Of a stretch of DNA of 33,403 nt, positions 13,144 to 33,403 are shown piece after piece (within the stretch, counting starts at the first letter, position 1; each line of letters starts with the position of its first letter). Under the pieces are notes generated by a model that saw nothing but the letters and a program-made list of their open reading frames with translations, searched no databases and was not told where the DNA came from. Position numbers and translations under genes: made by a program. The stretch comes from Reclinomonas americana ATCC 50394. Lineage: Eukaryota. The stretch covers positions 1 through 33,403 of the forward strand of contig PS015716.1 in assembly GCA_048213135.1 (NCBI GenBank), written 5' to 3'.

Positions 13144-14067
13144 TCACGTGAAGTCGCATGTGTAGAGAATCTCCAGCGCTGCGGCCGCATTCAGCGCGCA
13201 GACCGGGAGCAGCGGGTCAAAGACCACAGCTGCGGCGTTGAGCTGGCAGCGGTCGCCTTCGGAGACAATCGGAATGTCGCAGAGGCCTTGCAGCACGGCA
13301 AGCGCGTTGTCGTCGCTGGCCGGCGCATTGCAGTTCGGGTTCAGTCCCGGGCACGTGGAGGCCACAATCGGCGGGAATGCCGGATTGATGGCCAGCGAAC
13401 CCGAAGCGAACGTGGCGTGCAACACCGAGATCGACGAGCCCACCGGGCACTGGTTCAGGTTGAACGATGCGTGACCGCAAGTGACGCTCAGGAAAGCATC
13501 GCAGTCGCCGTTGACGCCAAACGCGACGCCGTCGTTGAACACCAACGTGTCGCACACGCAGTCGCCGCTGGCGTCGCACTGGCCGTGACTGTTGCATGTG
13601 TCGCTGCCAGTGCCGTCGGAAACGCAGTGCTTGGTGCATGCCATGGCAGCTGTGCGTGCAGGTCAGCCAACACGAAGAAAGGGTAAAGGGGAACGAATGA
13701 AGTGGACGCAACCCGGCGGCGCTGGGTAGTAGTTGGTCGCGCACTCGTTGCAGAAGTCGCCGCCAAAGTTGCCAGTGCATGAGCACTCGCCACTTGGCAG
13801 GCAGGTGCCGTGGCCTAATTGACAGCAAACGCAGTGAGCACTCTCGTGCAGAATTTCGTCTCGCTGCTGAATCATCACGCTGCCGAGTAAACCAATGTCT
13901 CTAACACACACACACGACGACGACCTATACAACAACAGAGAGCCATTCTAACTCACAATCCAAACTCTTACACACTCTCTCAAACACAGCGACATTTTGG
14001 ACAAATAATTAGAGTCACCCTGAAATCGATCTCGCAGTCTCGATCACACTCACCCATCAACATGCAC

Positions 14068-14098
<31 letters not shown>

Positions 14099-17000
14099 CC
14101 GCAGAAAGAAACAACGAGTCTATCTCCGCATCTCATTCCCGTGACGCGTTCTTGCTCGTACACACACAACAGCAGGAATAAACATCACACAACCCCGCAA
14201 GATCTGTGCTCATCACTGTCGAACTTGCGCTCTCTCTCTCTCTCTCTCTCTCTTGCACACGGGCACGCAAAGCAAACAGCAACAAATACCACACACAACC
14301 TCGCAAGATCTCTGCACCTCACTGACAATCTCATACAAACACAACACCCACAGCCGTCACCAGCGACAACAACAGCAGTTGTAGCTAACGACAATATGAC
14401 TGCAAACGAATAACACCACACGTGTGCTCTCTGCCGCCTTTGCTCATTTCTCTCACCGACACGCGTATCCTGTCGCTCGAATTCCTTCCCCCTACCCCTC
14501 CCCTTTCCCTTCCCTTTCCCGTCCCCCTTATATATCCCCCTCCCTCACCGTTGCAGGTGACGGCATCGCTGCAAGCGCAATCCGAACCACCGAATCCAGG
14601 ATCGCACAGGCACGAGCCATCCGGCTGGCATGAACCGTTGTTGTTGCAGTCGACCGCCGACTGGCACATGCAGTTGGGGCCGCCGAATCCCGGGTTGCAC
14701 AGGCAGGAGCCATCGGGGGCGCAAACGCCACCGTTGTTGGCCTGGTTGCAGGAGCCGACCAGATCGGCGGGGAACGGACCGTGCGCGGCAATAACAGGAT
14801 GGCACTCGCAGTTTGCTCCGCTCCAGCCCATCGGGCACACGCAGGCACCGGTGCGCGAGTTGCAACCTTGTCCGTAGCTGCAATGACACAAACACAAGTG
14901 AGTTTCCTCTACCCGGCCAACTCAGCCACCACAGCACAGTTGCTTACCAGGTCTGATTCTCGTTGCAATTGCACGAGTCGCCGAACCAATCGCGGTCGCA
15001 GTCGCAATCCGTGTCGTCGAACTCGCTGCACGAACCGTGGTTGCTGCACGTACTGGCTTGCGAGCAAGAGCACGTGGGTCCGCCAAAGCCAGGCGGGCAG
15101 TAGCAAGTGGTGCCGCTCGGGTCGCACTCCGTAAAGTTCGAGCACGACGTGTTGTCGCACGAGCAATCGATGCCACCAAACGGCGGGTTGCAGCTGCAAC
15201 CATCGTTGGCGAGGCTGCATGCACCGTGCGGCGGCAACAAATCGGCGCCGCAGTTCAAATCCTGGCACGTGCAGGTGAGGCCACCGAACGGGGCCTGGCA
15301 GATGCATGCACCGTTGGTGCCGAGCTGGTCGCACGAGCCACCGCTGTTGATGGAGTTGCAGTCGGTGAGCACGTTGCAGCCGCAGTCGAGACCCGTGAAT
15401 CCAAGATCGCATTCGCACGAGCCATCCGACCTGCATGAGCCGTGACCTGTACACACCGATTAGCGACGCCAGTGAAGAGGTGAAGCAGCACAAAGGAGAG
15501 GCGACTTAACCATTGCAGTCGTCAGCATCGCTGCACGAGCAGTTCGGGCCACCGTAGCCGACAAAGCACTCGCAGTTGCCGTCAGTGCCGCACTGACCAC
15601 CGTTCGGGCCGTTGCACAAGGCGTCCACGCACGAGCAATCGGGACCACCAAAGCCTGCCTGACACGCGCAGCTGCCATCCGGCTGACATGAACCGTTGCC
15701 GTTGCACGTGCTCTGATCCGAGCAGCTGCAGTCCACGCCGTTGAAGCCGGCAAGGCAGACGCACTGGTTGATCGAGGTGGGATCGCAGAAGCCAGCAACC
15801 GGAGAGCCGCTACAAAACGATCCCAACAGTGAGAAAACAAACTTGACAGAAACACCTTTTGCGAAAAGGCGAGTGTCTCTTACCAGCCCGCCTCCACGCA
15901 GGAGCAGTTGAGGCCGCCAAAGCCAGTGTAGCATTCGCACAGGTGGGTGCCAGCGTTGCAAATGCCATTGTTGTTGCAGTCCACGTCCTGCGAGCACGAG
16001 CCGACGCAGGCGTCGTTGCATTGCGGGCCGCACAGACCGTTCTGCAAGAGGAGGGAAAGGGGGGGTGAGACACGCCAATAAACACAATGTCTCTAAGTGC
16101 ATTCATGGGAGAGACGCAACCGAGCACTGCGAGCAGTCCGTTCCGCCATAGGGTGCAAAGCTACGCAGCGCCCACACAGAGTCAGCATAATGCACACAAC
16201 AAAGCACTGCAACGCGGACAGCTCACCAAGAGCACGAGGCATCCGGATTGCAAGTACCGTGTCCGCTGCACGACTCCACCGGGCGGCACTCGCAGTGCGG
16301 TCCGGCAATGCCCGGGTTGCACTGGCACATGCCGCTGATGCACTGGCCGTTCGACTGGCCATTGCAATCGAGGTCGCTGGCGCAGTTGCCCGGTGGCGGT
16401 GGTGGCGGTGGCGGCGGCGGTGGGGGCGGCGGCGGAGTGTTGCAGATTTCATCGCAGTTGGCTCCGCACAGACCGTTCTGTCGAGGCGCAAGAGTACATG
16501 AGAACACGGATAGAAAGGCTTGCACAAGAAAAGAGGCAGGCGACGCAACAATGCACGCCTCGCAGAAGGTGCCGGCCCAGGTTTGAGAGAAGCTGTACAG
16601 AGACGGAAAAAGTGAGCGGGCACACGCAGAGGCACTCTCTTGTTCTCAAAAAATGTCTCACCACTGGCACGATCCGTCGGCATTGCAAGTGCCGTGGCCA
16701 TTGCAGGTCTCCACCGGGCGGCAAGAGCACTGCGGACCGCCAATGCCTGGGTTGCAGAGGCACTGTCCGTTGATGCACTGTCCGTTGGCGAGACCGTTGC
16801 AGTCGAAATCGCTGCTGCACGACGAGTTCGGGTTGGGCGTCGGCGTCGGCGGGCACAGCTGGTCGCAGTTTTCGCCGCAGAGGCCATTCTGCGATCACGG
16901 CAGGTGAGAAGAGTTGCCGAGGGGCAAGAAAAGGATGGCACGCAAGTGACGCAACAATGCAGAGCTCGCAAAACTGGCCCACCCACTGGTTGTCGAAGCT

Positions 17001-20000
17001 GTCTCGCAAAAAAAAGAGGGGACAAACATGAGTGTCTTGCCTCTATCTTTCACACACTCTGAGAAGATTGCACACGACTGACCAGTCGCAAGTGCCGTCA
17101 ACGTTGCACGTGCCGTGACCGTTGCAGGTCTCGACAGGGCGGCACGAGCACTGCGGGCCGCCAATGCCCGGATTGCACGCGCATTGACCATACACGCACT
17201 GCCCGTTGGCGGGTCCATTGCAGTCGGCGTCAATGTCGCATGATCCATCACCGGCAGTCGGCGGAATAGGCGGCGGGCACACTTGGTCGCACTGCGAACC
17301 GCAGAGTCCATTCTGATAGAATTCGAGGGGATGTGAGATTACTGAAAACAAAGAGATCTCTCCACCCATGTCAAAGGAGACGCAACGACACACAGCTCGC
17401 AGTTGGCGCCGAACCACCACTGGCTGAAGCTGTGCGTTGCAATGAAGAAATGAGAAGTTGTGCGGACACATCACAGACAAGAAGCTAGTGGGCACGCACC
17501 ACTCGCAAGATCCATCCGGATTGCACGTGCCGTGGCCACTGCAAGTCTCGACAGGGCGGCACTCGCAGTGCGGGCCAGCAATGCCCGGGTTGCACACGCA
17601 CGATCCGTTGATGCACGCGCCATTCGACTGGCCGCCGCAGTCGTCGACGGTGCTGCAAGTAGTCTGCGGCGGCGGAGGCGGCGGGGGCGGAGGCGGGGAC
17701 GTGCACGGCAAGCTGCACTGCGGGCCACAGAGTCCATTCTGGGTGCGCGAAGGAGTATAAGTATTAAAGCAACAGAGGCCTGCCTGAATGTAGAGTTGGG
17801 GGTGTGAAAGACGCAACGACACACTGGTCGCAAGTCGATCCCGTCCACCACTGGAAGCTGCAGAAAATGAAAAAAAGTCAGAACGGTGGCTCATCTTCCC
17901 CACAGCACAGGATACATACCAGTTGCAGGTTCCGTCGTCGTTGCAGGTGCCCTGACCGTGGCAAGTCTCCACCGGGCGGCACGAGCAGTTGGGACCACCA
18001 ATGCCCGGGTTGCACACGCAGTGACCGTTCACGCACTGGCCGTTCGACTGACCACCGCAGTCGGCGATGGTGCTGCACGAGCCGCCAGTGGTCGGCGGAG
18101 GCGAGCACGGCTCGCTGCAGGTGTTGCCGCACAGTCCGTTCTGATGAAAAACGAGCGCATTGAGAAAAGCAAAACACAAGTGAAGCACAAAAGAAGTCCA
18201 AAACGCAACGACGCAAGTCTCGCAGTGAGCTCCAGTCCACCACAGGTTGTTGCTGCGCGCGGTCATGGGTTTAGGAAGATAGAGCGAGTTTGCAGGGTGA
18301 TTGCACACAAACCATTGGCACGTTCCGTCGGGGTTGCAAGTGCCGTGGCCATTGCAAGTCTCGACCGGGCGGCACTCGCAGCTGGGGCCTCCAATGCCCG
18401 GGTTGCACTGGCAAGCGCCATTGACGCATGTGCCGTTCGACTGGCCGTTGCAATCCAAGTCGGTGACGCACGACGACACAATGTACGGCACGTCCGGCGG
18501 CGACTCGATATCCGGCGGCGAGTCGCACGGTGTGTCGCAAGCGTCGCCACAGAGACCATTCTGCACGAGGGGAAAAGATTGATGTGAGAATGAAGACACA
18601 ACAACGGCAAGCGCACACGAATGCGCAACGATGCACAGCTCGCAGTGAGCACCATCGTGCCACGAATCGTTGCTGTCAGCGATAAACAACATCAGAAAAC
18701 GCTGATGCGGGAAAAGTCGTTTGCCACAAAATCATACCACACGCAGTTGCCCTCGGCGCTGCAAGTACCGCGGCCGTTGCACGTCTCCACCGGGCGGCAC
18801 GAGCAAGTCGGTCCACCAATGCCCGGGTTGCAGTTGCACACGCCATTGACGCAGCTGCCGTTCGCCTGGCCACCGCAGTCGGCGTCGGTGACGCACGGAT
18901 TCGGGTTCGGCGTCGGCTCGACGCACTCGTCGCTGCACGTCGGTCCGCACAGGCCATTCTGTGGATGCCAGTAAGCACGACTGAGGGAGAAAGCAAAGGA
19001 TCAAGAAAGCGTACCGTGCAGGTCTCGCAGAACTCGCCAGTCCACCAGTTGTTGTTGCTGCGTAGAAAAAAACAGTCGTGAGAAGACCAGCAGACAAGAG
19101 TCGCATTAAAATAATCACGTCGTTCACACACACGCACCAGTTGCAAGTGCCGTCCTGGTTGCACGTGCCGTGGCCATTGCAGGTCTCGACAGGGCGGCAA
19201 CTGCAGTGCGGACCGCCAATGCCCGGATTGCAGATGCAAGAACCCAGCACGCAGTGGCCGTTCGATTGTCCACCGCAGTCGTCATCGGTGATGCAGCTGG
19301 CATCCGGGAACGGCGGCGGCGGTGGCGGCGGAGGCGGCGGCGGGGGCGAGTCGCACGGCAAGTCGCATGCCGGACCGCACAAGCCGTTCTGGGTGGGTGA
19401 AAGGGCGAGTGTCAACACAAGTCCCCCTTATCCAACCACATCCTATCTCCACGTTACGCAACCACGCAGTTCTCGCAGTACGCGCCAGTCCACCATTGCG
19501 GGAAGCTGTGTGACGGGATGTGTAAGTCAAGGTGTCTGGAGAGAGAGTGACGACGCGCTGCACCACCAACCAGTTGCACGAGCCGTCGGCGTTGCAAGTG
19601 CCATGACCGTTGCAGGTCTCGACGGGGCGGCACGAGCAGTTGGGTCCACCAATGCCCGGGTTGCACTGGCACGAGCCCTGGATGCAGCGGCCATTCGACT
19701 GGCCGTTACAGTCTTCGTCGGAGGAGCAGACGCCGTTGTTTGGCGGCGGGGGTGGCGGGGGTGGGACAGAGCACGGTTGGTCGCAGGCGTCGCCGCACAG
19801 ACCGTTCTGGGGAGGAGAAGGGATGTGAGGAAGGGGGAAGGGGGGAGAGGGGGAGGGGGAGAGGGAGAGGGAGAGGGGGAGAGGGAGAGGGAGAGGGGGA
19901 GAGGGAGAGGGAGAGGGAGAGGGAGAGGGAGAGGGAGAGGGAGAGGGAAGAGGGGGAGGGAAGAGGGAAGAGGGAAAAGAAAGAAGGGTGAGGGAGACGG

Positions 20001-23000
20001 AGACGGAGACGGAGAAGGAGACGGAGAAGGAGACAGAGAGGGAGAGAGGACGATGAAGGGGGAAGATTGAGAAGGGAGGAAGAGAGAATGAAGAGAGGAG
20101 AGATGAGGGGATATTAGATAGAACGAGAATGAGGGAAGCGGGCGATGGAGAGGAATGACGGAGAGAACAATGAGGAAGAGGCAACGAAGACATATGCAAA
20201 GGATAAATGGGAAGCGAATGATACTTGACATAACGAAGAGAGGAGGAGGGTGAGCGAGAATGAGGAAAGGAGCACGGAAATGCAATGCAAAGGAATAAAA
20301 GAGCGCTGCAAGGGGGACGAGAGAGACACTGAGGAGGCAGCGCAAGAGAGCAGGGCTGGAAACGAGAGAGAAAGAGCGTCACACAAAGAGGAAGCAAATG
20401 GAAGGGCAAAATCAAAACCAGAGCGATTGTGCAATGCAGAGTAAGTGAGTCACTTGTGAACAACGAAACGATGCAGTACTGGCAGTTGGAGCCGGAGTAC
20501 CACTGCGCGAAGCTGTGCACAAATAAAGCAGTCAGAATCGCACACAAGAAGCAAACATAGACTGCTGTGAACACACACCAGTTGCACGTTCCATCGCTGT
20601 TGCAGGTGCCGTGACCGTTGCAGGTCTCCACGGGGCGGCACTGGCAGTTGGGACCATTGATGCCCGGGTTGCAGACACACTGTCCAGTGACACAAGTGCC
20701 GTTGGCGAGGCCACCGCAGTCATCGTTGGTGGCGCACACCGGCGTCGGACCAGGCGGCGGGGGAGGCAATTCGGTATTGCAGTCGTCCAGGCAGTTGGGT
20801 CCGCACAAGCCGTTCTGTGAGCGACGAGTGAGGGATGAGGAAGAAGAAGCTGGGTGAAAATGGACATTGGTTGAGCACGAAACGATGCACAGCTCGCAGT
20901 TGATGCCAACCCACGAGGCGTTGCTGTTGGGGACGAGCGGGTAAGAAGAAGGGGGACAGGTAGAAGAGAGAGATCCCAATGAAGCAAACGCACCATGCGC
21001 ATGTGCCATAGATGCAGTAGCCGTTCATCGGGCCGTTGCAGTCCGCATCAAGCACACAACCCTCCACCTGAGGACCGTTGTTGGGTGGCGGTGGCGGTGG
21101 CGGTGGCGGCGGCGGTGGCGGTGGTGGTGGCGGAGGCGGAGGCGGGATGGGCGAGCACGGGTCGCCGCAAGTCGGGCCGCAGAGGCCGTTCTGCGTATTG
21201 CACACACGCGTTAAGAATCGACACGGCACAAAGACAAGCGGCTTCGGGCAACGCAACGACGCAGTTCTCGCAGAACGAGCCAGTCCACGACCCGAAACTG
21301 CGCAACACATGAAAATAGTGAGCATCACAACAGATCAACGACCAGTAATATGACGGGGACACATAACCAGTTGCAGCTGCCGTCATTGTTGCACGTGCCG
21401 TGACCATTGCAGGTCTCCACCGGGCGGCACTGGCACTGCGGACCACCAATGCCCGCGAAGCAGACGCACGAGCCGTTGATGCACTGTCCGTTGTTCGGGC
21501 CATTGCAGTCGGCGTCCTTGGAGCAGTTGGACGGTGGCGGTGGCGGCGGCGGCGGTGGCGGAGGCGGCGGTGGGTTCGACTCGCACGACTGATCGCACTG
21601 CGCGCCGCACTGGCCGTTCTGCGCAGAAGGGAAAGGGTGAGGCAAGAGGGGATACATGGAAACACATGCGTGTGGAGTGGTGCAACTAACCGAGCACTGC
21701 TCGCAGTGAGAGCCAGTCCATTGCTGGTGGCTGCTTATGATTGTGAGCGGAGATAAAGGCAAGACACGCAAATCCCCCTACAAACCAGTTGCAAGTGCCG
21801 TCGGTGTTGCACGTGCCGTGGCCGTTGCAGGTTTCGACCGGGCGGCACTGGCACTGGGCGCCGCCGAGGCCGGTCTGGCACACGCACTGACGGGTGACCG
21901 GGTTGCACAGGCCATTCGGGTAGTTGCAGTCGGTGTCGTTGCTGCACTCGCCGACAGGGATCGGGTTCTGGCACGGAGTGTCGCACTGGGCGCCGCACAG
22001 GCCGTTCTGCGATGAAGGATTAGGGGAAGGGAAAGGGAGGCGGAGGGGGAAAGGGAGGTGGAGAGGGAAAGGGAGGTCGAGAGGGAAAGAGAGTGGTGAA
22101 AGGGGAGGAGAAAGGTTAAGGGAGGTAAAGAGGGAAAGGAGGCGGAGGGGAAGGTGAAAAGGATAGCGTCGAAGGGAGAGTGGGAGAGAGCGAGATGGGA
22201 AGGGGAGTGAAAGGGTGAGTGTGGCTGAGAGTTGAGAGAGCGAGTGAGAACGAATGCGAAGTGGCTGAAGGTGACTCTTCGAAAAGTGGATAGAACGAGG
22301 GGGTCAAGCAAGAGGTGTGGCTGAGGAGGAGTGAAAAGACAACGAAGATGAACGCACGCAATATGTCCAGGAGCGGTGTGAACTGGGAAGGTTGCACACG
22401 ATACTGAGGAAACTAACCTCTGACAAGCACAGAACGAAAGGATCGCAGAGCGAGACACAGTTGAGAAGTCGAAGAGATCACAAGGGACAACAGAGATATT
22501 GAGGATGAGTGAGATAACCAACGCACACTGATGAGACATATCACACACTCGCCCCTCCCTCCCTTCCCACCCCAACGCAACGACGCAAATCTCGCAATGC
22601 GCTCCAGTCCACCAGGTAGTGTTGCAGTCGCAGCTTCCGTCGGGCTTGCACACACCGTGACCACCGCACGTCTCCACCGGGCGGCACTCGCAACGAGGGC
22701 CGGCAATACCCGGCAGGCACTGGCACGATCCGTTGATGCACGAGCCGTTGTTCGGGCCATTGCAGTCGGCGTCGTTCGAGCACACGAACGGCGGCGGCGG
22801 CTGGTTGCACGACGTGTCGCAGTTCGCACCGCACAGGCCGTTCTGCACGCAGAGGGGAAATGAGTCACTGTGTTTATATGTGAAGGCAAGGGAGGCAGAT
22901 GCGACAACGCAACAGCACAGCGATCGCAGCTCACGCCAGTCCACTGAGGATAACTGAGCGACAGAGGGAGTGTGAGTAACAACCTTTCAAGACCATGCAT

Positions 23001-25634
23001 TGCAGTAATACTCACCAGTTGCAGCTGCCGTCGGTGTTGCAGCTGCCGTGGTTATGGCAGGTGGTCTCCGGCTTGCACTGGCACTGGGCGCCACCAATGC
23101 CCGGCTGGCACTGGCAGTGACCGTACTCGCACGTGCCGTTCGGGTAGTTGCAGGCAATGTCGCTCTGGCACTGCTGGCACACGTCGGAGCACGTCGGGCC
23201 GCACTGGCCGTTGGTGCACTTGTCGCAGTAGGTGCCCGTCCATTGCGAGTTGCTGCGTGGGTGATTGTGTGTGAGAGCACAACTCAACAAGAAAAGTGTG
23301 ATATCGAAGAGAATCACAAACCAGCTGCACGTGCCGTCGGCCTGGCAAGAGCCGTGACCGTTGCAGGTGCCGGCAATGCACTCGCAGCGCGGACCCAGCG
23401 CGCCATTGTCGCAGGCGCACAGCTGAGTATTCTGGTTGCAGTGGCCGTGACCAATGCCGCCGCATTCGGCGTCCGAGTAGCAGACGGCCGGGGTGGGCGG
23501 GGGGACGGGCGGGGAGGGCGGGCAGGCGGTGTCGCAGCGGTCGCCGCACAGGCCGTTCTGCGGGAGGAGAAGGGGAAGAGAGGGGAAGGGATAAAGGGCA
23601 AGGTGAGGGATCGGGGAGAGGGAAGAAGGGGGGTATGGGGGAGGAAGGAGGAGGAGAGGGAGAAGGGATGCGGTGGGGAGAGGTCACGAGGGAGAGAGTG
23701 AGAATGAGAGATAATGCCGGAAGCGGAAAACGGAAGGGAGAACATAGAGATGACTAAATACACACAAGACAACACGAGTGGGAGCGGATGCCAGTGCAGA
23801 CGCTCCTCGACGATGTGAGCAAGGCAACCAGAGCACAAACAGAGGACAATGACATGCAAGACTGAGATCCCTGGAAACGCAACGACGCAGAGCTCGCAGA
23901 ACTCGCCAGTGTACTGGTTGGCAAAGCTGCAGTGAACAAGCACATCAGGTGAGCCACGAAGTCATTCAGTGACTCATTCGCGCAGAGGGACGCAACCAGT
24001 TGCAAGTGCCATCCGAGTTGCACGTGCCGTGACCGTGGCAGGTCTCGACGGGGCGGCACTCGCATCGCTGGCCACCGATTCCGGGCTCGCACTGGCACTC
24101 GCCGGTGGACACGTTGCAGTGACCGTTGGGAGTGTTGCAGTCGGAGTCGAGGCTGCAGTGGAAGCCTGGCGGCGGTGGCGGTGGTGGCGGCGGCGGAGGC
24201 GGGGGCGGGGGAGGCGGGGGAGCAGTGCTGGTTTGGCAGTCGGCGCCGGTCCAGCCGTCCTGAGAAAGAGGACAAGGAGGGTGAGAAAGAGGGAGAGGGA
24301 GAGGGAGAGGGAGAGGGAGGGAGGGAGGGGGGAAGGACAGAAGATCCTTGCGTCTCTCTCTGCAGTCCAGAAAGTGCGCATTGTGACGCGGAGAGTGCAT
24401 TGCTCAAAGAATGGCAACAAATATAGCATTTCACTGTGCAAGCCGTGTCTTCCCTGCCACAGGAGAGTCTGGAGAAAGACATTGCAATACAGGGCACCAG
24501 TAATTCCTGTCCAGTGAACCAGACTGCACACACTTTGCTTCTCTTCAGACAAAAAGTCTCAAGGAATCGTCTCATCCCTCTCCATCCATCTCTCTTCCCA
24601 CTCAAACTCCCATCCTCCCAGTCCTTTTTAAGCTCCACATCTCACACCCTTTGTTTCTGTTGGATACAGGTCTCCAGTCCGAAGGAATCACCTCGCCCTC
24701 TCCATCCATCTCTCTTCCCCTACTCATCCTCGCTCTTGCCCCTCCCCCTCATGCACCCCTGTCTGCACCACCGTGCCCGCCATGATCCCTCCCTCCCTCC
24801 CTCTCCCTTTCTTTCAGACGATTCTGCAATTCGGCACGCCTTGGGGGATCGAACACGCACGCACCTTGCAAGCGCACTCGGCGTTTCCGTTGCTCAGCAG
24901 ACCACCGGTGAAGCGACCATTGCCGCTGCAGTGGTTGCTGACGCACTTGTACGTCACCTCGAGGTACTTGTAGATTCCCGAGCACTGCGAACAAAATAAG
25001 GTGATTGCATGAGACATACAGGCAAATATCAGCAGAAAAAAAGAAGAAAAGGAATCTGCCTGCACTCACCGACTGCAGGTTGACCTGACCGGGCTCGCCA
25101 AGGTTATCAATCGACGGCTCAACGACGCACGTGGAGATGGGACCGGACACGGGGTGGCACGTCGACTGCAACTGCGAAATCAACGTCGTTCCAGCGCCCA
25201 TGCACAACGTCGTGGTCGACAGATTGGCAAAGGAGCCCGTAGGCGACGCGCATACAGTGGCTATCAATCACAAGAGAATCAGACAATGAGCGTGCATGCA
25301 TGTGAAAGGTATCATGCATAATCACTCAACTTTCACGACGACCCCAGAAGGCATTGCTGATGAGAATGTACGTCTGAGGCGCACAGGTAATGTTGGCGAG
25401 GCCGCTGGTGGCGCCGGCATCGACTTGACACGTTTGCTGAAAGTTGTCGTCTGCGCACAAAAAAAAAACGTAACGGTCAGATTTTTCGGGCGCGCCAAAA
25501 AATCGCACAGATGCGAACTCCTGTCACACTCTCCTCTCTCTTTTGTGTGTATGTCTGACGCAACTCGCATGCACCGCGGCAACGCAGCAGCACAGCAGCG
25601 CAACGAGGAGGAGGAGGAGAGCAGAGGTGCGCAT
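13144..25634 (-). CDS. Secreted Cys-rich protein: signal peptide, SUEL/Gal_Lectin domain, about 18 (polyproline + EGF-like) modules, tandem tenascin-type EGF repeats, C-terminal SUEL-like domain; 42 exons
   Basis: ATG at 25634, MRTSALLLLLVALLCCCVAAVHA (signal peptide). N-terminal ITCAPQTYILISNAFWGR...CSGIYKYLEVTYKC is a SUEL signature. Repeated NGLCG..C...C-Pn-C....DC...NG.C..G.C.C.PGIGG..C.CRPVETCNGHGTCN.DG.C.C...W.G..CE.C. Last exon CPVGSSISVLHATF...LQGLC..CQLNAAAVVFDP..C..LEILYTC, then TGA at 13144. All 41 introns are GT-AG and preserve the frame. No transmembrane helix seen. Confidence 0.9.
19830..20050. repeat. Polypurine (GGGAGA)n / (GACGGA)n intronic tract
   Basis: Directly visible; it abuts the splice acceptor at 19807. 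Confidence 0.9.
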
Positions 25635-26795: not shown

Positions 26796-27199
26796 TTACC
26801 GATTGGTATACTTAGGTTTCCAGAGTGAGACGACCAGGAGCCACTTCAATGTCCTTTCAGTTGTCCTGTTCGTTTTCACTCTTCTTTTGCTCTTGGAGAG
26901 CAAGTTGGAGAGGCGGTACAGGGTAATTGTTTCGACGCGAGAGCGGTACAGTTGGGTGAAACGGACCTGCACGTGATGCACAAGTTGGCAAGTGAGCTTT
27001 CTCTCATCTCCTCCTCCCCCTGTCGACTTGCCTTCACGTTCTTGGCCACGCCCTCGAAAGCCTCGTCGAGCATGCCACGCACCGTCTTTTGGTAGGTCTG
27101 CACGGTGACTACGTCGTGTTCGGAGATGGCGGAGGGTGAGGAGGCGGCAGCGATGGTGGCCACGGCTTTGGGGGGTGGGAGGAGGGCCTCGCAGAACTC
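26796..27199 (-). pseudogene. COG6: COG6-like fragment (two exons), apparently truncated
   Basis: Exon 27032-27199, GC-AG intron 26967-27031, then an exon from 26966, giving EFCEALL...MLDEAFEGVAKNVKVRFTQLYRSRVETITLYRLSNLL. This resembles the COG6 motif LD..FEGVCRP.KVR.EQ.......Y.L.NLL. Similarity stops near 26895 and the frame ends at a stop at 26796. Confidence 0.55.
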
Positions 27200-27331: not shown

Positions 27332-27709
27332 NNNNNNNNNNNNNNNNNNNNNNNNNNNNNNNNNNNNNNNNNNNNNNNNNNNNNNNNNNNNNNNNNNNNN
27401 NNNNNNNNNNNNNNNNNNNNNNNNNNNNNNNNNNNNNNNNNNNNNNNNNNNNNNNNNNNNNNNNNNNNNNNNNNNNNNNNNNNNNNNNNNNNNNNNNNNN
27501 NNNNNNNNNNNNNNNNNNNNNNNNNNNNNNNNNNNNNNNNNNNNNNNNNNNNNNNNNNNNNNNNNNNNNNNNNNNNNNNNNNNNNNNNNNNNNNNNNNNN
27601 NNNNNNNNNNNNNNNNNNNNNNNNNNNNNNNNNNNNNNNNNNNNNNNNNNNNNNNNNNNNNNNNNNNNNNNNNNNNNNNNNNNNNNNNNNNNNNNNNNNN
27701 NNNNNNNNN
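27332..27709. other. Assembly gap (N run)
   Basis: 378 N. Confidence 1.
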
Positions 27710-27832
27710 CAGCGTTACTCACCCGCACAGCCACATCAAAGCCGTACTCCGACCGCTCAAGCGCCGCCATGTGAAATCCGATGATGAGTCATGCAGGACC
27801 GCGCGCGCGACCGCAAGCGACGTCGTCTTTTA

Positions 27833-30042
27833 TTATGAAGGCTTGCGAGGAGTCGCTGTTGCTGTTGCTGATGTACATTGACGGTACAGTGCGGCTGCGC
27901 GGCTGTTGGGCTCGGCCAGACCTTTGATCTCCATTTCACGCCACAGAATGGCCGCACGACTGTGTTTTTCCTTTCCTTCAACATTCATCTCTTCGGCAAG
28001 CAAGGGCGATGCAGTAGCACGAACCTGGCATCCGGGGGCGACTGCTGTGTGCACGCATGCAGCAGGCCGACATAATGCGCCGTGGAAATCGGCAGACCGT
28101 CACGCTTCAGCATCGAGAACACCTGCGGCAAGTGACACAGGTCAAACTCTCCGGCACTGCGATGCGAGATCCGCAGCGCAGCGACGCACCTGGTGAGCGT
28201 CATCGACGCGCTGCGCACTGCACAGATGCTGCAGGGCGGTCTCGTACACGCTAATGTGGATCGTACCGGTGCAGTATTTGCCCCGTGTCGCCCGGTATCT
28301 CTGCAAAAATGGTACAAGTGCGCCGGCATCGACCCGTGCCATGGCCACCACGGCACGCATCAGCACAAACGTGTTGACGCGCACGTGCAGCCTCTTCATG
28401 TCGACAAAGAGCAGGCGTTCGATCCGCTGTGCGACGGTCTCTCCCTGGTTGGTGAGAATGGCGGCGGGTACGACAGAGGCTGCGCCGAGAGCCTGCACGA
28501 GTGCAGCGGGTGTGTTGGGCGACGGAGCCGACTGCGACTGTGCGGACGGAGAGGCCACACTGGCGTCCCATATGCGAAACGCCTCGCACAGAAGCTCGCG
28601 CTCTTGATCTGCGGCGGAGACTCGTTTCAGTGTCGCTGGCGATTGCACGGTTGCCGCAGAGGGTGCACTCACCGGCAGCCTGTGCCGCCCGCGCCCGCGC
28701 GGCATTGTCGACCAACATGACCAGCAGCTCATGCAGCGTCTGCTCGTCGGGTCGCAGGTGCTGATGCGTCAGCATGACTCGGTAGGCCCGTCGCGCGTCG
28801 TCCACCAAGCCGTTCTTGCCGAGGCCCCAGATCATAGCATCAAAAACGGGGCTCGTGGTGCGCACTCCACGCTGGCGCATGTTCTCGAGCAGCAGCCACG
28901 CTCGTTGCGGCTCCCCATGCGTGCACACGCACCGTATGGCGTAGGAATAGGCTCGGGGTGAGAGCGGCCTGGACGACTCGTAGCAGAGTTGCTCCACCGC
29001 CGCCCAGTCGTCGAGTTTCCCGTACGCCACCTGCACCGTCTCCACCAGCGCCACGCTGCTCTCTGTGTGTTCACGCGCACATCGTCACGCTCTCCCCCTT
29101 TCTCTCTCCCTTACACACGAGTCAACAACAGCAACATGCCTGTTCGCTTCTCCGCCGGCATCTCCAACCACCTCTCCACGACCCGCTGCGGCTGGCCGTG
29201 CTTGGCCAGCACCTTGAGCAGAATCGTCAATTCGTACTCACCGACGCCAATCGCCGCTGCCGCATCGCTGTACACGCGCTCCGCCACCGCCACCACTTGC
29301 TCCATGCTCAGTGGCGCCTCCGCTTGGTAGCACTCCACGGCCACGGCCACCGACTGATTGAATGGTGCTCCGTCGGCCGCGGCCGTCGATGCCCACGCCT
29401 CCGGCGTGTTCTTGCGCACCTGCTGTGCCCACACAGCGCTATCAAACGACAGACAGGCGTTCAACACAGCGGCGTACACGCGTCGCGAGAGCGGTGACTG
29501 CGCCTCGCGATCGCGCATCGTCTCGTACAGCGACACAACCTGCAGCGGGAAGTCAGGCGACAAAAGCAATGCACGCAGCGTCGTCCTTTGTTCCCAACCT
29601 GATGCAATCGCTCATGCCGCCCCAACCACAGCAGAAGCAGCGCCACACGCTCCTGTGGCAACTTGCGTGTCGGCACCTCACTCACAGGCCGATGCAGCAG
29701 CGTCGTGAGCTGCAGGATCGCTGCGCCAAGCAGAACACGCAATGAGCACAACACACAAGTGCATCGTCCTCTTCCCCTCGCACCTGGCACGACCTGTCTC
29801 GCCGCCACATTCTCCGCAAACACGCGGATCAACTCGCCACCAGGGCGACGATCGTTGACAGCCGCCGCCGTCTGCGCATCGACACGCAAGCCGACCAAGT
29901 ATCGCGTTTGCTCTGCGCACTTGTAAGAGAGCAAGAAGAAGAAGAAGAGGAGGGAGAGAGAGAAGGACGCACTGCTCTGCAATCGCTGCAGGGTCTCTCG
30001 CGTGGCCGAGCGGAAGCCGATCGCCGCCTTTCGCAGCAACAT
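27833..30042 (-). CDS. Pentatricopeptide repeat (PPR) protein, probably mitochondrial, multi-exon
   Basis: PPR motifs RAYSYAIRCVCTHGEPQRAWLLLENMRQRGVRTT, SPVFDAMIWGLGKNGLVDDARRAYRVML, ISVYETALQHLCSAQRVDDAHQVFSMLKRDGLPIS and AHYVGLLHAC. Arg-rich N-terminus MLLRKAAIGFRSATR at ATG 30042; stop at 27833. The 5' junctions are approximate. Confidence 0.88.
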
Positions 30043-30153
30043 CGAGCAAGCGATCACAGACTGACAGACAATCACTCGCGCGCGCGATCGTCCTCTCTTT
30101 GTTTCGCTTGTCTCTCTCTGTCTCTGTGTGTGCGCGCATCCCACAAGCAAAGC

Positions 30154-30916
30154 ATGTCACTTCTGCATCGACTGGCCTGCCGGCTGAACCTGGCAAGTGG
30201 AGCGGCCCCGGTGACAAGATGGGCATTGTGTGGTGCCAGATCACCAGCACTGATGACGATGAGCAGCTTGGCGGCGCCGACACCGGGCGAGGATCTGCTC
30301 ACCAAGTCGAGCACGGGTCTCACGTTGCGTGTGGAATGCATACAGTGAAGGAGAGGACTGTGTGAGAGAGAGATGTGATTGAGATGCATGCATGTGTGCA
30401 CGTGTGTGTGCGTTGAATGCACGCTCGCTCGTGTGTGTGTGTGTATGCGATGAGTGCCTTGTGTGTGCTGACTGTGCTTGCGTGTGCGTGTGTGCTTGTG
30501 TGTGTGTCGTGCGCGCGACATTTCCACTTCACAGTGGTCTGCCAGCGCTGAGCTTTGAGGAGGCGCGCTCGCAGCTGGAGGGCGCATACAAGCGCATTTT
30601 GAGCGAGGTGGCAGCCAAGGTGCCGGCAGAGGCCGACTATCGAAAGAACGTCGAGGCAGTGACCAATGTGAGTGATCACTCGTGCGCTTCCTCTCTCTGC
30701 GTTGCTCAACGTGTGTGCGTGTGTGTGTGTGTGCAGTTCCGGTTGAATGTGCTGCGCTCAAGCTCTGACCCGGCGGTGATTGAGGGCAAGATTGATTGCG
30801 GACAGCTGGAGGAGTTGCTGGTGCAGGCAAAGGAGGAGCTGGCGCTCATCGATGTGGTGGCCAGCGACAGAGCGTGGGAGGGCTCCAGCGGTGTCACTGT
30901 GGAGCACAAGGAGTGA
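30154..30916 (+). CDS. NDUFA5: NADH:ubiquinone oxidoreductase subunit A5 (B13), about 160 aa with an N-terminal extension
   Basis: Exons 30154-30323, 30535-30667 and 30737-30916 give TKSSTGLTGLP...YKRIL...VPAEADYRKNVEAVTNFRLNVL...IEGKIDCGQLEELLVQAKEELALI...AWE. Confidence 0.95.
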
Positions 30917-31043
30917 GGATGGCTCACTGCGGGAGGGACGGAGTGGCGTGCCCGCTGCGTTCCCTGATCATCCCGGTTGTCGTGCAATGCAACCGAGCAC
31001 AATGCTGTTGATTGATGTTGTTGCTGCTCTTCACTGCAACGGG

Positions 31044-33144
31044 CTACCCCAAAAAGTACGACACGATCTTACTGACCAGCGAGCCTGGTGGTTCTGCTGT
31101 TGACGCTGCCGCCGCCGCTGCTGCTGCCTGTGCGGCTGCTGCGGGCCCTCCACGCGGTGGTGACATGCGGTTTGCCGCCCCCGCGCCACCGGCTCTGGCC
31201 GCTGGCGATGCGTACGATAGCGATCCACCACCACCACCACCACCGAAACGCGAGTAGCTGGATCCCGGACGTGGTGAGTAGGCGGCCGACACTGCACTGG
31301 CCGGCATCTCCACCGGTCGCTTCGACAGTGCCGACCAGTCGCGACCGGGGCGAATCGGCGACGTGTCGGTGTTGGGCAGCCGCAGGACGCCCTGCAACAT
31401 CGTTGAGAGGGAAGGCATGAGAACAAGGTAGGAAACGGGATGAGAACGAAGGGCGCGTACCGGGTCCGTGCACGGCAAGACGCCAATCATTATGTCGCCA
31501 CCCAAAATCTGGCCATTGCGACTCAGCGCATTCTCCACCTCCCGTTTGCTTCGATATCTGCACTTGAAATGAGGGAGGGATGCATGCGCCACGCTGGTTT
31601 AACACTGGAGGGAGTGCTCACCTGAGATACACCCAGTTGCCACCGTCTTCTCCCTCCACGCGATCAACGATTGCGCCACACGACTCAAACTTGCTCATCA
31701 CCAGCGGCAACTGCGGTGCGTCGAAACCAAAGACCGTCACCCAAAAGTCGAGCTCGTCCGACTCCATGTCCGACAGCGGGCTGCACGAGAAGGCAACAGT
31801 CACCACCACAAGCCTCTCGCCAGCGCAATGCAGTAAGAACACACCGATCATGCATGGAGAATTCGGATGGTGCGTGCGCAAAGCGGCGAGAGTTCGAGTT
31901 CCGCAGGGGCGACGCACCGACCAGCAGCGAGCGCATACCAGGCGTGCTCGGTGGCGCCGCAGCGGAGGTGGCGGCGGTGGTCGTCGTCGTCGACGTCGCA
32001 GTGGCCGCCGTCGACGAGTGACCGTATCGCGAACCGGCACCACCGGGCGTGGCAAACAGGCGACCGGCCGGCGAAAACGGAGCCGATGACGACGACTCGC
32101 CGAACCCGGCCCACGGATCGCTGGCACCCGCACCAGCGGCAGCAGTCGAACGACCCCCCTGTTGCTGCTGTTGCTGCTGTTGTTGTTGCGAGAAGCGCAG
32201 CGACGATCCAGCAGCTGCTGTGGCGGGACGCGACTTGCTTGGAGCCGACGTGGGTGTCGCCCACGGCGCCGTCGGCATGCTCGATCCCAGCGTCGATCGC
32301 GGTGGTGTCACCGCATGCCTGACATCACCATTTTTCAGGCTTCCCGCTGTTCCAAACACGCACACATATGCTACGAGCACATACCTGGCAAACGGATCCG
32401 CAGAAGACGCCATGGGTGTGGCAAACGGATTCGACCCCACCGTCGCCGCCGACATGGACGAGCGCAGTGCCATGCGCTGATCCAACACATGCACAGTGAG
32501 TCACACACGCGCATGTAATCACAGCCAACCGGCCAACAAACCCTATCAGGCGACCGGAAAGCTGCCGCCGCAGCCGGAGCACGATCATTCATGGACGGCA
32601 GCGTGGAGAAGTCACGCGTGCGACTGTGCACAAGAAGAAAACCAATCATCAGGTCAACACTACAAAAGACGTGTGTGAGAGAGAGAAAACGCAACACTCG
32701 CGGTCGCTCTTGCGGGGCGGCCAACAACTGCGGCGCGCCAAAGCCCGCATCACGACTGCCATCCACAGCCGTCGATCTGTGCGTGCGAAAGATTGCGCGC
32801 GAAATGCATTGCAAACATAGTGTAAGAAGAGCGCGATAAGACAACTCTCACACAACAAGGAGAGTGCAGCCACGCAACACCAACAACGACGTCTTTCGTC
32901 GCCCAGGCGACACACCACCGGCGTTGGCGAGGCCGCGCATGTCGTCCATGCCTCCTCCTTGCCCATTCGCCTGTTGTTGCTGATGTTGCTGCTGCGAAGG
33001 GTGCATGGGCGCCGACATTTGCGCCACGAGCGACTGCTGCGCATCAGACGCGGCACCACCACCACCACCACCACCGCCAGGCAGCGACACAAAACCACCA
33101 CCAGAGGTCGAACCGTACAGGCGACTGCCTCCTCTTCCAAACAT
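31044..33144 (-). CDS. NUP35: Nucleoporin Nup35/Nup53 (MPPN-type RRM), 8 exons
   Basis: Exons 32879-33144, 32696-32776, 32542-32623, 32385-32476, 31845-32318, 31622-31780, 31461-31557 and 31044-31391 join in frame. RRM: WVTVFGF...KFESCGAI...NWVYLRY.S..E...ALSRNGQILGGDIMIGVLPC. C-terminal amphipathic helix SLVSKIVSYFLG. Confidence 0.93.
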
Positions 33145-33403
33145 CGCTAACAATGAACGTGCGCAAGAGTGTGTTCGCGCGGATAGTGGTACAGCAGAAG
33201 CAGCAACAACAAGGGCGCTGCTCCCGAGCAAATGAGGTGAAATGACTGTGCAGGACAAGTCAGCAGAGCGAGCTTCGTTCTGCATCAGCGCAGCCGTTCC
33301 TGTCGTGCGTCTCTCCACCCCGCCCTTCTGCATTCACCTACAAGCGCAAAAAAACCGCCGCAGTCGACGTCGCACACGAGTTATTCTTGCAATTGTTTGT
33401 GAC

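What the first reader, a model, noticed from the sequence alone, without database searches (positions are those of the whole stretch)
13712..25564. Donor class is coupled to the last exonic base: a non-G exon end predicts a shifted donor
Seen by manual tally in the lectin/EGF gene: all 21 normal-register donors follow exonic G, and all 14 donors preceded by A, C or T are shifted (6 more shifted donors follow G). The carrier (3 non-G, all shifted; 4 G, all normal) and NUP35 (2 non-G, both shifted; 5 G, all normal) agree. Exceptions exist, for example AAT|GTGAGT at 30668 in NDUFA5. Inference: in the shifted register intron G+1 takes the U1 pairing normally made by exon G-1, which frees the exon end from constraint. 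This is a testable compensation rule.
Basis: partly seen in the sequence, partly recalled or inferred. Interest (0 to 1): 0.75.

Follow-up and report, generated by a model that had tools for sequence, protein, structure and literature searches.

The report
Shifted splice donors follow non-G exon ends
In this unidentified eukaryote about a third of introns start GTT(G/A)NGT instead of GT(G/A)NGT, and these one-base-shifted starts, unlike the ordinary ones, do not need a G as the last exon base, which fits a recognition mode known from only a handful of human introns.

Summary
The tally in the EGF-repeat gene is exactly right. My 42-exon, 2349-aa model has 41 donors: 21 normal-register, all after G; 14 after non-G, all shifted; 6 shifted after G.

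The naive p of 1e-6 is pseudo-replicated. 32 of the 41 donors sit at two paralogous positions. At one, a split Cys codon (TG|Y) forces G at -1.

The coupling still survives collapsing. Counting each repeat position once and adding NDUFA5, NUP35, a PPR gene, an unnamed 9-exon gene and the carrier's 3' half gives non-G 7 shifted / 3 normal and G 2 shifted / 24 normal (p = 4e-4). Outside the EGF gene alone p = 0.003-0.015.

The rule is a strong tendency, not a law. Exceptions are NDUFA5 30668, PPR about 29114-29118, and possibly NUP35 32851.

G at -1 in shifted donors is at the unconstrained level (2 of 9; 2.9 expected). This favours the known U1 shifted register over a bulged U. Human-type U1 energetics do not, however, explain why the extra T is kept.

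No RNA data, genome or U1 gene were available. I class this as a new variant of a known kind.

The parts
13144..25634 (-).
   Evidence: Open frame through all exons. EGF_Teneurin / EGF_2 Pfam hits on single exons. No lectin family hit on single exons.
25558..25564 (-). shifted donor cga|GTTGCGT, phase 1, non-paralogous
25324..25330 (-). shifted donor aaa|GTTGAGT, phase 1, non-paralogous
23990..23996 (-). class A donor ctg|GTTGCGT (shifted after a codon-forced G)
23877..23883 (-). class B donor gtc|GTTGCGT
22907..22913 (-). class B donor gct|GTTGCGT
22575..22581 (-). class B donor gtc|GTTGCGT
21684..21690 (-). class B donor tcg|GTTAGTT: -1 is G and the donor has drifted to the normal register
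21361..21367 (-). class A donor ctg|GTTATGT (shifted after a forced G)
21251..21257 (-). class B donor gtc|GTTGCGT
20877..20883 (-). class B donor atc|GTTTCGT
20463..20469 (-). class B donor atc|GTTTCGT
19456..19462 (-). class B donor gtg|GTTGCGT (shifted after G)
19008..19014 (-). class B donor acg|GTACGCT: the only class B copy without the extra T; -1 is G
18623..18629 (-). class B donor atc|GTTGCGC
18203..18209 (-). class B donor gtc|GTTGCGT
17811..17817 (-). class B donor gtc|GTTGCGT
17380..17386 (-). class B donor gtc|GTTGCGT
16949..16955 (-). class B donor att|GTTGCGT
16543..16549 (-). class B donor att|GTTGCGT
16114..16120 (-). class B donor tcg|GTTGCGT (shifted after G)
15504..15510 (-). 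shifted donor atg|GTTAAGT after G, phase 1
13706..13712 (-). shifted donor cgg|GTTGCGT after G, phase 1
30154..30916 (+). NDUFA5 gene, 3 exons, 160 aa
   Evidence: Pfam ETC_C1_NDUFA5; model
30324..30330 (+). shifted donor cac|GTTGCGT (NDUFA5 intron 1)
   Evidence: The junction restores S-T-G-L-T-G-L, which resembles the N-terminal motif of NDUFA5 as I recall it (no call supports the recollection).
30668..30674 (+). EXCEPTION: normal donor aat|GTGAGTG after T (NDUFA5 intron 2)
31044..33144 (-). NUP35 gene, 8 exons, 532 aa
   Evidence: RRM_Nup35 hits on two adjoining exons, meeting at profile positions 46-48; model
32689..32695 (-). shifted donor agt|GTTGCGT (NUP35 intron 2)
   Evidence: Best of 5 frame-valid pairs by 11 log units
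32872..32878 (-). candidate shifted donor ggt|GTTGCGT (NUP35 intron 1); ambiguous against tgt|GTGAGAG at 32851
7080..10918 (-). unnamed gene U, 9 exons, 1107 aa, introns 57-71 nt
10453..10459 (-). shifted donor aaa|GTTGTGT (gene U intron 2)
9862..9868 (-). shifted donor gct|GTTGCGA (gene U intron 6). The frame-valid alternative tat|GTGCGTG at 9846 needs the second AG.
27833..30042 (-). PPR-repeat gene, at least 6 exons
   Evidence: Pfam PPR hits; model
29106..29118 (-). EXCEPTION: frame-forced intron. Its three possible donors (ctc|GTGTGTA, cgt|GTGTAAG, tgt|GTAAGGG) all follow non-G and none has the extra T.
4647..6298 (-). 3' half of the putative carrier gene. Three donors after G, all normal (6162, 5281, 4977).
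   Evidence: No Mito_carr Pfam hit on single exons.

Best explanation
This organism uses two classes of GT-AG donor that differ by one extra T after the GT. The normal class is G|GT(G/A)NGT. The shifted class is N|GTT(G/A)NGT.

My reading is that U1 snRNA sees both classes as the same motif, G-(G/U)-U-R-N-G-U. In normal donors the first G of that motif is the last exon base. In shifted donors it is intron G+1, so U1 sits one base downstream (the Roca-Krainer 'shifted register'). Cleavage is then fixed at the only GU by the later U5/U6 steps.

Two consequences follow. Normal donors almost always need an exonic G. Shifted donors leave the last exon base free. Exons that end in A, C or T for coding reasons therefore mostly carry shifted donors.

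Shown here: the two classes, the coupling, the lack of constraint at -1 in the shifted class, and strong purifying selection on GTTGCGT at the non-G repeat position.

For: 1. Exact tally in the EGF gene: 21 normal after G, 14 non-G shifted, 6 G shifted.
2. Coupling outside the paralogous repeats. With repeats collapsed: non-G 7 shifted / 3 normal against G 2 shifted / 24 normal, p = 4e-4. In non-EGF genes: 4/3 against 0/18, p = 0.003. Donors there were chosen by a score that ignores exon bases, and it agreed with my curation in 15 of 17 introns.
3. -1 is unconstrained in shifted donors (G in 2 of 9 independent positions, 2.9 expected) and constrained in normal ones (24 of 26-27).
4. Same-age paralogs behave differently. 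Intron interiors are at shuffled-level identity (0.54-0.56 against 0.53-0.55). Class A (-1 G forced) has 14 distinct donor heptamers among 16 copies. Class B has 5 among 16, with GTTGCGT 11 times.
5. Within class B, the two copies that left the shifted register are both among the 4 copies with G at -1. None of the 12 non-G copies left it (p = 0.05).
6. Pair counts against AUACUUACCUG: shifted register 6.4, bulged 5.9, canonical 3.7 for non-G shifted donors.
7. The shifted register, and cleavage set by U5/U6 rather than U1, are established for human sites (passages of PMC4856993, and PMC11162779).
Against: - There is no RNA evidence for any junction. Frames alone leave 2-26 alternative GT-AG pairs per intron.
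- 3 of 10 independent non-G donors are best read as normal-register.
- With a human-type U1, non-G shifted donors are predicted to bind very weakly (mean -0.6 kcal/mol). Deleting one U would improve 18 of 19. Simple U1 energetics therefore do not explain why N|GTTGCGT is preferred to N|GTGCGT.
- The organism's own U1 sequence is unknown: no genome is held and there is no Rfam hit in the window.
- The sample is 36 independent intron positions from one 33-kb window.
Confidence: 0.5

Rival explanations
1. The recognition machinery itself is retuned in this lineage. GUUGCGU would be the optimal, fully paired 5' splice site, either for a divergent U1 5' end or for another factor that binds UGCGU. 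GUGCGU/GUGAGU donors would then be the imperfect class and would need the extra exonic G-C pair. On this view the coupling is real, but the 'shifted' class is the canonical one here.
For: - GTTGCGT is the commonest heptamer: 14 of 41 EGF-gene donors, plus NDUFA5 intron 1 and NUP35 intron 2.
- It is kept under strong purifying selection in class B.
- Human-type U1 energetics predict almost no binding for it and favour loss of the extra U in 18 of 19 cases. This is hard to square with its conservation.
Against: - The shifted class shows the same spectrum as the normal class moved by one base: GTTGAGT, GTTAAGT, GTTATGT and GTTGTGT beside GTGAGT, GTAAGN, GTATGT and GTGTGT. That is what one canonical U1 read in two registers would give.
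- Many normal donors are classic GT(A/G)AGT matches to ACUUAC.
- From recall, with no call behind it: the U1 5' end is very conserved among eukaryotes.
Confidence: 0.2
2. The coupling is mainly a by-product of gene history plus the ordinary exon/intron seesaw. Two ancient intron positions were copied 16 times each. One happens to be TG|GT in a Cys codon. The other happens to be GTC|GTTGCGT. Donors lacking G at -1 simply keep whatever strong intronic consensus they inherited. On this view there is no register-specific rule.
For: - 32 of 41 donors belong to the two paralogous classes, and the Cys codon fixes G at -1 in class A.
- The within-class B test is weak: p = 0.05, or 0.25 if +3T is the criterion.
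- The 9 non-repeat EGF-gene donors alone give p = 0.17.
- A link between the exon-end G and +5G is described in the abstract of PMC8283771 (search listing only).
Against: - In four other genes no donor after G is shifted (0 of 18), while 4-5 of 7 after non-G are (p = 0.0004-0.003; worst case 0.015).
- Non-G shifted donors occur in all three phases and in unrelated genes.
Confidence: 0.13
3. The GTT donors are read in a bulged register: G+1 and U+2 pair normally, one U bulges out, and RNGU pairs one step further along (the 'bulge +2/+3' register of Roca et al. 2012). They would not be read in the shifted register.
For: - For GTT donors after G, the bulged and shifted registers give equal pair counts (7.7 each).
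- The register is experimentally validated for human sites, with 68 predicted cases (passages of PMC4856993).
Against: - In a bulged register exon -1 still faces U1 C9, and a weakened helix should need that pair more, not less.
- Observed instead: G at -1 is at the unconstrained level in GTT donors, and non-G donors have fewer pairs bulged (5.9) than shifted (6.4).
Confidence: 0.1
4. The shifted-donor introns are copies of a mobile intron (an introner-like element) that brings its own GTTGCGT end and inserts without regard to the flanking exon base.
For: A recurrent, nearly invariant 7-base intron start in unrelated genes.
Against: Interiors of 10 shifted-donor introns from different positions align no better than shuffled controls (mean local score 14.3 against 13.4). 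The same holds for 10 normal-donor introns (13.7 against 12.5). Class B interiors are also at shuffled level.
Confidence: 0.03

Closest known systems
Shifted-register 5' splice sites recognised by U1 one base downstream (Roca & Krainer 2009, NSMB). The paper is not held; I saw it only as described in PMC4856993 and PMC11162779.
   Same: - GU is cleaved normally, while the best complementarity to the U1 5' end is offset by +1.
- G+1 sits where exon G-1 normally pairs.
- The model shifted site in PMC4856993 Table 2 (ACA/GUCAAGUAUA) also has a non-G exon end.
- Pair counts here favour the same register.
   Different: - In humans all validated non-canonical registers together are 1.5% of 201,541 sites. 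The shifted class proper is a few dozen sites by my recollection.
- Here 24-25 of 66 modelled donors, or 9-10 of 36 independent positions, are of this type.
- The +3 base here is always U and the core is GCGU rather than AAGU.
- No suppressor-U1 evidence exists here.
Bulge +2/+3 register (Roca et al. 2012, Genes Dev, not held; Tan et al. 2016, NAR, PMC4856993, passages read)
   Same: Donors that look like the consensus with one nucleotide inserted between +2 and +5 (wording from PMC11162779). GUU... sites are the textbook case.
   Different: This register predicts that G at -1 stays favoured. Here -1 is unconstrained in the GTT class.
Dependency between the exon-end G and intronic positions of the 5' splice site (the 'seesaw'). 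Carmel et al. 2004 is recalled. The abstract of PMC8283771 was seen in the listing.
   Same: Donors without G at -1 keep a much stricter intronic motif: class B has 5 distinct heptamers among 16 copies, class A has 14 among 16.
   Different: The compensation here is a change of register (an extra T), not a better match at +3 to +6 in the same register.
Strict GTGCG(T/C) donors of Ostreococcus introns (Irimia & Roy 2008). Known to me only through the earlier scan note e1-560454; the paper was not read.
   Same: - A G+C-rich genome with a GCGT-type donor core.
- A CT(C/G/A)A(C/T) motif within 45 bases of the 3' end in 14 of the 20 introns examined here.
   Different: That note reports no GTT class. 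Introns here are numerous (41 in one gene) and the donor spectrum is broad.

Membership tests
Shifted-register U1-type 5' splice sites | Cleavage occurs at a GU that is not the GU position of the best U1 alignment; complementarity is better in the +1 register than in the canonical one. | tested here: met
   Mean pairs for 19 non-G GTT donors against AUACUUACCUG: canonical 3.7, shifted 6.4. Cleavage sites are inferred from reading frame only.
Shifted-register U1-type 5' splice sites | Exon position -1 no longer faces U1 C9, so G there is not favoured. | tested here: met
   G at -1 in 2 of 9 independent shifted donors (2.9 expected if unconstrained) and in 4 of 16 class B copies. Normal donors have G in 24 of 26-27.
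Shifted-register U1-type 5' splice sites | Genetic proof: rescue by suppressor U1 in the shifted register but not in the canonical one. | not testable with these tools
   Needs minigenes and the organism's U1. No genome is held.
Shifted-register U1-type 5' splice sites | The organism's U1 5' end is the canonical ACUUACCU. | not testable with these tools
   No Rfam family hit in the window. No genome.
Bulge +2/+3 register 5' splice sites | G+1/U+2 and exon -1 pair canonically while one U is bulged, so -1 G remains useful. | tested here: not met
   -1 is unconstrained in GTT donors. Bulged pair count is 5.9, below 6.4 shifted, for non-G donors. The two are equal (7.7) for the six donors after G, so a bulge stays possible for those.
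Exon/intron compensation at 5' splice sites | Sites lacking exonic G show stronger conservation of intronic positions. | tested here: met
   At equal age, class B has 5 distinct heptamers among 16 and class A has 14 among 16. Intron interiors are at shuffled identity.
Introner-like mobile introns | Sequence similarity between copies beyond the splice signals. | tested here: not met
   Local alignment scores equal shuffled controls.
U12-type (minor spliceosome) introns | Donor (A/G)TATCCTT. | tested here: not met
   None of the 66 modelled donors has it. The motif is recalled, not taken from a call.

The most novel reading that the evidence does not exclude
An entire eukaryotic lineage, with no close relative in the searched protein collections, may have made the one-base-shifted 5' splice-site register a mainstream mode. 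It would be used by roughly a quarter to a third of introns. GUUGCGU would be an optimal site, and the last exon base would be freed from the near-universal preference for G. This may go together with a retuned U1 5' end or U1-C.
Probability: 0.25. Interest if true: 0.75.

Novelty: new variant of a known kind. Interest (0 to 1): 0.5.

Why it matters
The shifted U1 register is currently a curiosity. It rests on a few dozen human sites and on minigene experiments.

A genome in which it serves a large share of introns would be a natural, genome-scale experiment on how the 5' splice site is read. It would separate the role of U1 pairing (register) from the role of U5/U6 (cleavage site). It would also show how coding constraints on the last exon base are accommodated.

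Gene-finding would be affected too. Standard donor models score +3 T poorly, so they would misplace many exon ends in this organism.

The practical limit is that only 33 kb are available here, without RNA data.

Tried and rejected
- RNA evidence: no RNA holder was listed for window 27710-33403. Read laying could therefore not be used.
- Rfam scan of the window: 0 matches, so no U1.
- Protein searches to name the organism or obtain annotated models:
  - Carrier exon: no hit.
  - NDUFA5 open frame: no hit.
  - PPR open frame against 1.84 billion representatives: only generic PPR relatives at 23-31% identity, plus one unnamed 130-aa ENA protein at 53% over 60 residues.
- Metagenome scan with the EGF-repeat alignment A1: 9 pattern matches, none related.
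- Protein atlas on the last EGF-gene exon: no usable hit.
- Signal-free dynamic-programming gene finder: read through introns and skipped exons, so I discarded it.
- Greedy acceptor choice: failed at long introns. I replaced it with fixed repeat starts.
- Annotation-free k-mer count of donor-like motifs: too noisy for the normal class, because GTGCGT is frequent inside Cys/Val/Arg codons.
- Six-frame coding score: not discriminating.
- Literature searches for the motif itself (GTTGCGT with intron; GUUGCGU) returned only unrelated papers. Searches on shifted/bulge registers and on protists listed no paper describing a genome rich in GTT donors. This is the only basis for saying I found none in print. 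The two primary papers (Roca & Krainer 2009; Roca et al. 2012) are not held.
- Introner hypothesis: rejected.
- Earlier scan notes: none for this genome.
Full report
SCOPE AND LIMITS

The window is eukaryotic, about 58% G+C, gene-dense and rich in short introns. No whole genome is held and no RNA run was listed. Rfam finds nothing in the window. Every splice junction below is therefore inferred from reading frame, repeat architecture, a few Pfam matches and splice-signal scores. None is seen in RNA.

THE OBSERVATION

The gene at 13712-25564 lies on the minus strand. I located its repeated exons by three codon-level patterns and chained them by frame. The result is 42 exons from 25634 to 13144, encoding 2349 aa with no internal stop. 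Teneurin-type EGF hits fall on single exons.

I call a donor shifted if it has T at +3 and G at +6 but not at +5. I call it normal if it has G at +5.
- 21 normal, all after G;
- 14 after A, C or T, all shifted;
- 6 shifted after G.

By +3 = T alone, 11 donors after G carry the T. These include GTTTGT (three times), GTTGGT and GTTAGT, which keep G at +5.

WHAT THE TALLY IS MADE OF

Each EGF repeat has two intron positions.
- Class A (16 copies) splits a conserved Cys codon, TG|Y. G at -1 is therefore fixed by the protein.
- Class B (16 copies) is phase 0, after C-x-x-C-(V/I/S/T/A) and before N-G-L-C-G.

Class A has 14 normal and 2 shifted donors. In class B, the 12 copies with a non-G end are all shifted, and the 4 copies with G are 2 shifted and 2 normal. 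So 32 of the 41 observations are two ancestral events copied. The naive Fisher p of 1.1e-6 is pseudo-replicated. The nine non-repeat donors of the gene give only p = 0.17.

THE PARALOGS STILL CARRY INFORMATION

Intron interiors within each class are no more alike than shuffled controls: mean identity 0.54 against 0.53 for class A, and 0.56 against 0.55 for class B. The duplications are therefore old. Over the same time, class A donors have drifted to 14 distinct heptamers among 16 copies. Class B keeps 5 among 16, with GTTGCGT 11 times. The donor behind a non-G exon end is thus under much stronger purifying selection. The only two class B copies that left the shifted register (tcg|GTTAGTT at 21690 and acg|GTACGCT at 19014) are among the four whose -1 has become G (p = 0.05).

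NON-PARALOGOUS INTRONS

- NDUFA5 (plus strand, 3 exons, 160 aa; Pfam hit): cac|GTTGCGT at 30324 and the exception aat|GTGAGT at 30668.
- NUP35 (8 exons, 532 aa): RRM_Nup35 matches on two adjoining exons meet at profile positions 46-48. Two T|GTTGCGT donors and five normal donors after G.
- An unnamed gene U (10918 to 7080, 9 exons, 1107 aa, introns 57-71 nt): aaa|GTTGTGT, gct|GTTGCGA and six normal donors after G.
- A PPR gene: four normal-register donors after G. One frame-forced intron has three possible donors (29118, 29116, 29114). All follow C or T and none has the extra T, so this is a second exception.
- The carrier's 3' half: three normal donors after G.

Frames alone leave alternatives at every intron. 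One search listed 0 to 15 valid GT-AG pairs per intron. With the wider windows the range was 2 to 26.

To avoid choosing donors by the rule under test, I trained a class-neutral score on the EGF gene. It uses intron positions +3 to +8 as an equal mixture of the two classes, the acceptor profile, and intron length. It uses no exon bases. It picked my curated donor in 15 of 17 introns. The two disagreements were:
- gene U intron 7, where both candidates follow G and are normal;
- NUP35 intron 1, where tgt|GTGAGAG (32851, 75 nt) outscores ggt|GTTGCGT (32878, 102 nt). This is a possible third exception.

The carrier's 5' half has 59,057 frame-valid paths. The top paths contain cga|GTTGCAT (6438) and ttt|GTTGCGT (6362), the latter flanking a 9-nt exon. 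They differ in the first donor. The shifted candidate at 6813 falls inside P-W-D-V-A-R-A-R, which mirrors P-W-N-F-A-R-N of the third repeat, so I take it as coding. I left this region out of all counts.

STATISTICS

| Set | non-G shifted/normal | G shifted/normal | p |
|---|---|---|---|
| Non-EGF genes, class-neutral picks | 4/3 | 0/18 | 0.0028 |
| Non-EGF genes, curated picks | 5/2 | 0/18 | 0.0004 |
| Non-EGF genes, worst case (gene U intron 6 also counted as normal) | 3/4 | 0/18 | 0.015 |
| All independent positions, each repeat class counted once, conservative | 7/3 | 2/24 | 4e-4 |

The association therefore survives collapsing of duplicates within this window. It is a tendency: about 70% of non-G ends carry shifted donors, against about 8% of G ends.

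IS -1 REALLY FREED?

From the modelled coding sequences, G makes up 28-34% of each codon position. Nine independent shifted donors should then show 2.9 G at -1 if unconstrained, and 2 are seen. Class B has 4 of 16. Normal donors have G in 24 of 26-27. So -1 looks unconstrained in the shifted class and nearly obligatory in the normal class.

MECHANISM

I compared the donors with the U1 5' end printed in PMC4856993 (AUACUUACCUG). Non-G shifted donors form on average 3.7 pairs in the canonical register, 6.4 in the +1 shifted register and 5.9 with one U bulged.

The shifted register, and the principle that U1 only roughly marks the site while U5/U6 set the cleavage point, are established for rare human sites (passages of PMC4856993; PMC11162779; review PMC9311317). 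A bulged register would keep exon -1 opposite U1 C9 and cannot explain an unconstrained -1.

One result speaks against a simple 'compensation' story. Nearest-neighbour duplex energies with this U1 are -0.6 kcal/mol on average for non-G shifted donors, against -7.0 for normal donors after G. Removing one U would improve 18 of 19. Either U1 proteins weight the C9-G pair far more than the energy model does, or this lineage's U1 (or another factor) is retuned so that GUUGCGU is a good site. I cannot tell which without the U1 gene.

OTHER RIVALS

Shifted-donor introns share nothing beyond the donor: local alignment scores average 14.3 against 13.4 for shuffled controls. They are not introner copies. 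No donor resembles the U12 type (motif recalled).

COMPARISON WITH WHAT IS KNOWN, AND NOVELTY

In humans all validated non-canonical registers together make up 1.5% of 201,541 sites, and 68 sites are predicted for bulge +2/+3. The shifted class proper is a few dozen by my recollection. Here 24-25 of 66 modelled donors, or 9-10 of 36 independent positions, are shifted.

My searches listed no paper describing a genome with abundant GTT donors or this coupling. The primary papers by Roca and colleagues could not be read, so I cannot say whether they noted the -1 state of shifted sites beyond the ACA/GUCAAGUAUA model site quoted. An earlier scan note on Ostreococcus (e1-560454) records GTGCG(T/C) donors in another G+C-rich genome but no GTT class.

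VERDICT

It is plausibly extended here to a mainstream role. It is not an absolute rule, and the energetics are unexplained. Interest is moderate. It would be high if RNA data and the genome confirm the frequency and the coupling.

Noticed in passing
window 23016-23252 and 22582-22842 (minus strand): Two EGF repeat units each lack one of the two standard introns. Exon 23252-23016 reads straight through the class B position (…C-D-K-C-T-N-G-Q-C-G…). Exon 22842-22582 reads through the class A position (…C-D-C-N-T-T-W-W…). These look like precise intron losses, or gains in all the other units.
   Followed up: partly
window 24260-24864, 23558-23883, 22007-22581, 19807-20469, 13815-14548 (minus strand): Five introns of the EGF gene are 326-734 nt long, against a tight 55-114 nt mode for the other 36. 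On the coding strand four of the five are largely C+T-rich low-complexity repeats such as (CCCTCT)n. The 13815-14548 intron instead starts G/A-rich and carries (GA)n runs. Three of the five follow class B shifted donors.
   Followed up: no
window 27026-27037 (minus strand): A possible GC-AG intron start, gtgaag|GCAAGT, at the end of an open frame (…Y-Q-K-T-V-R-G-M-L-D-E-A-F-E-G-V-A-K-N-V-K) that runs out of the 27332-27709 N gap. The gene was not modelled.
   Followed up: no
window 7083-9044 (minus strand): The last exon of gene U is a long array of roughly 30-aa repeats (…S-A-E-N-V-S-A-A-A-S-A-L-R-S-A-M-P-R-R-S-S-P-P-P…). It gives a whole-protein DUF4817 helix-turn-helix score (E = 7e-16) with no single stretch passing on its own.
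   Followed up: no
window 3071-3174, beside the N gap 2191-3070: A (GTAC)n microsatellite on both strands at the edge of an 880-base assembly gap. It inflates donor-like GTACGT counts in motif scans.
   Followed up: no
window 29913-29972 and about 29710-29772 (minus strand, PPR gene 5' part): Two intron-like segments whose length is a multiple of three: agca|GTGCGT…tgcgcag (60 nt) and ccag|GTGCGA…ggcgcag (63 nt). Frame cannot tell whether they are spliced. The first would be another normal donor after a non-G base (my reading of the sequence).
   Followed up: no
window 6363-6371 (minus strand): The best-scoring splice paths for the carrier's 5' half contain a 9-nt micro-exon (GCGGCTTTT) between introns of 67 and 62 nt. 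Skipping it keeps the frame, so it is unproven.
   Followed up: partly
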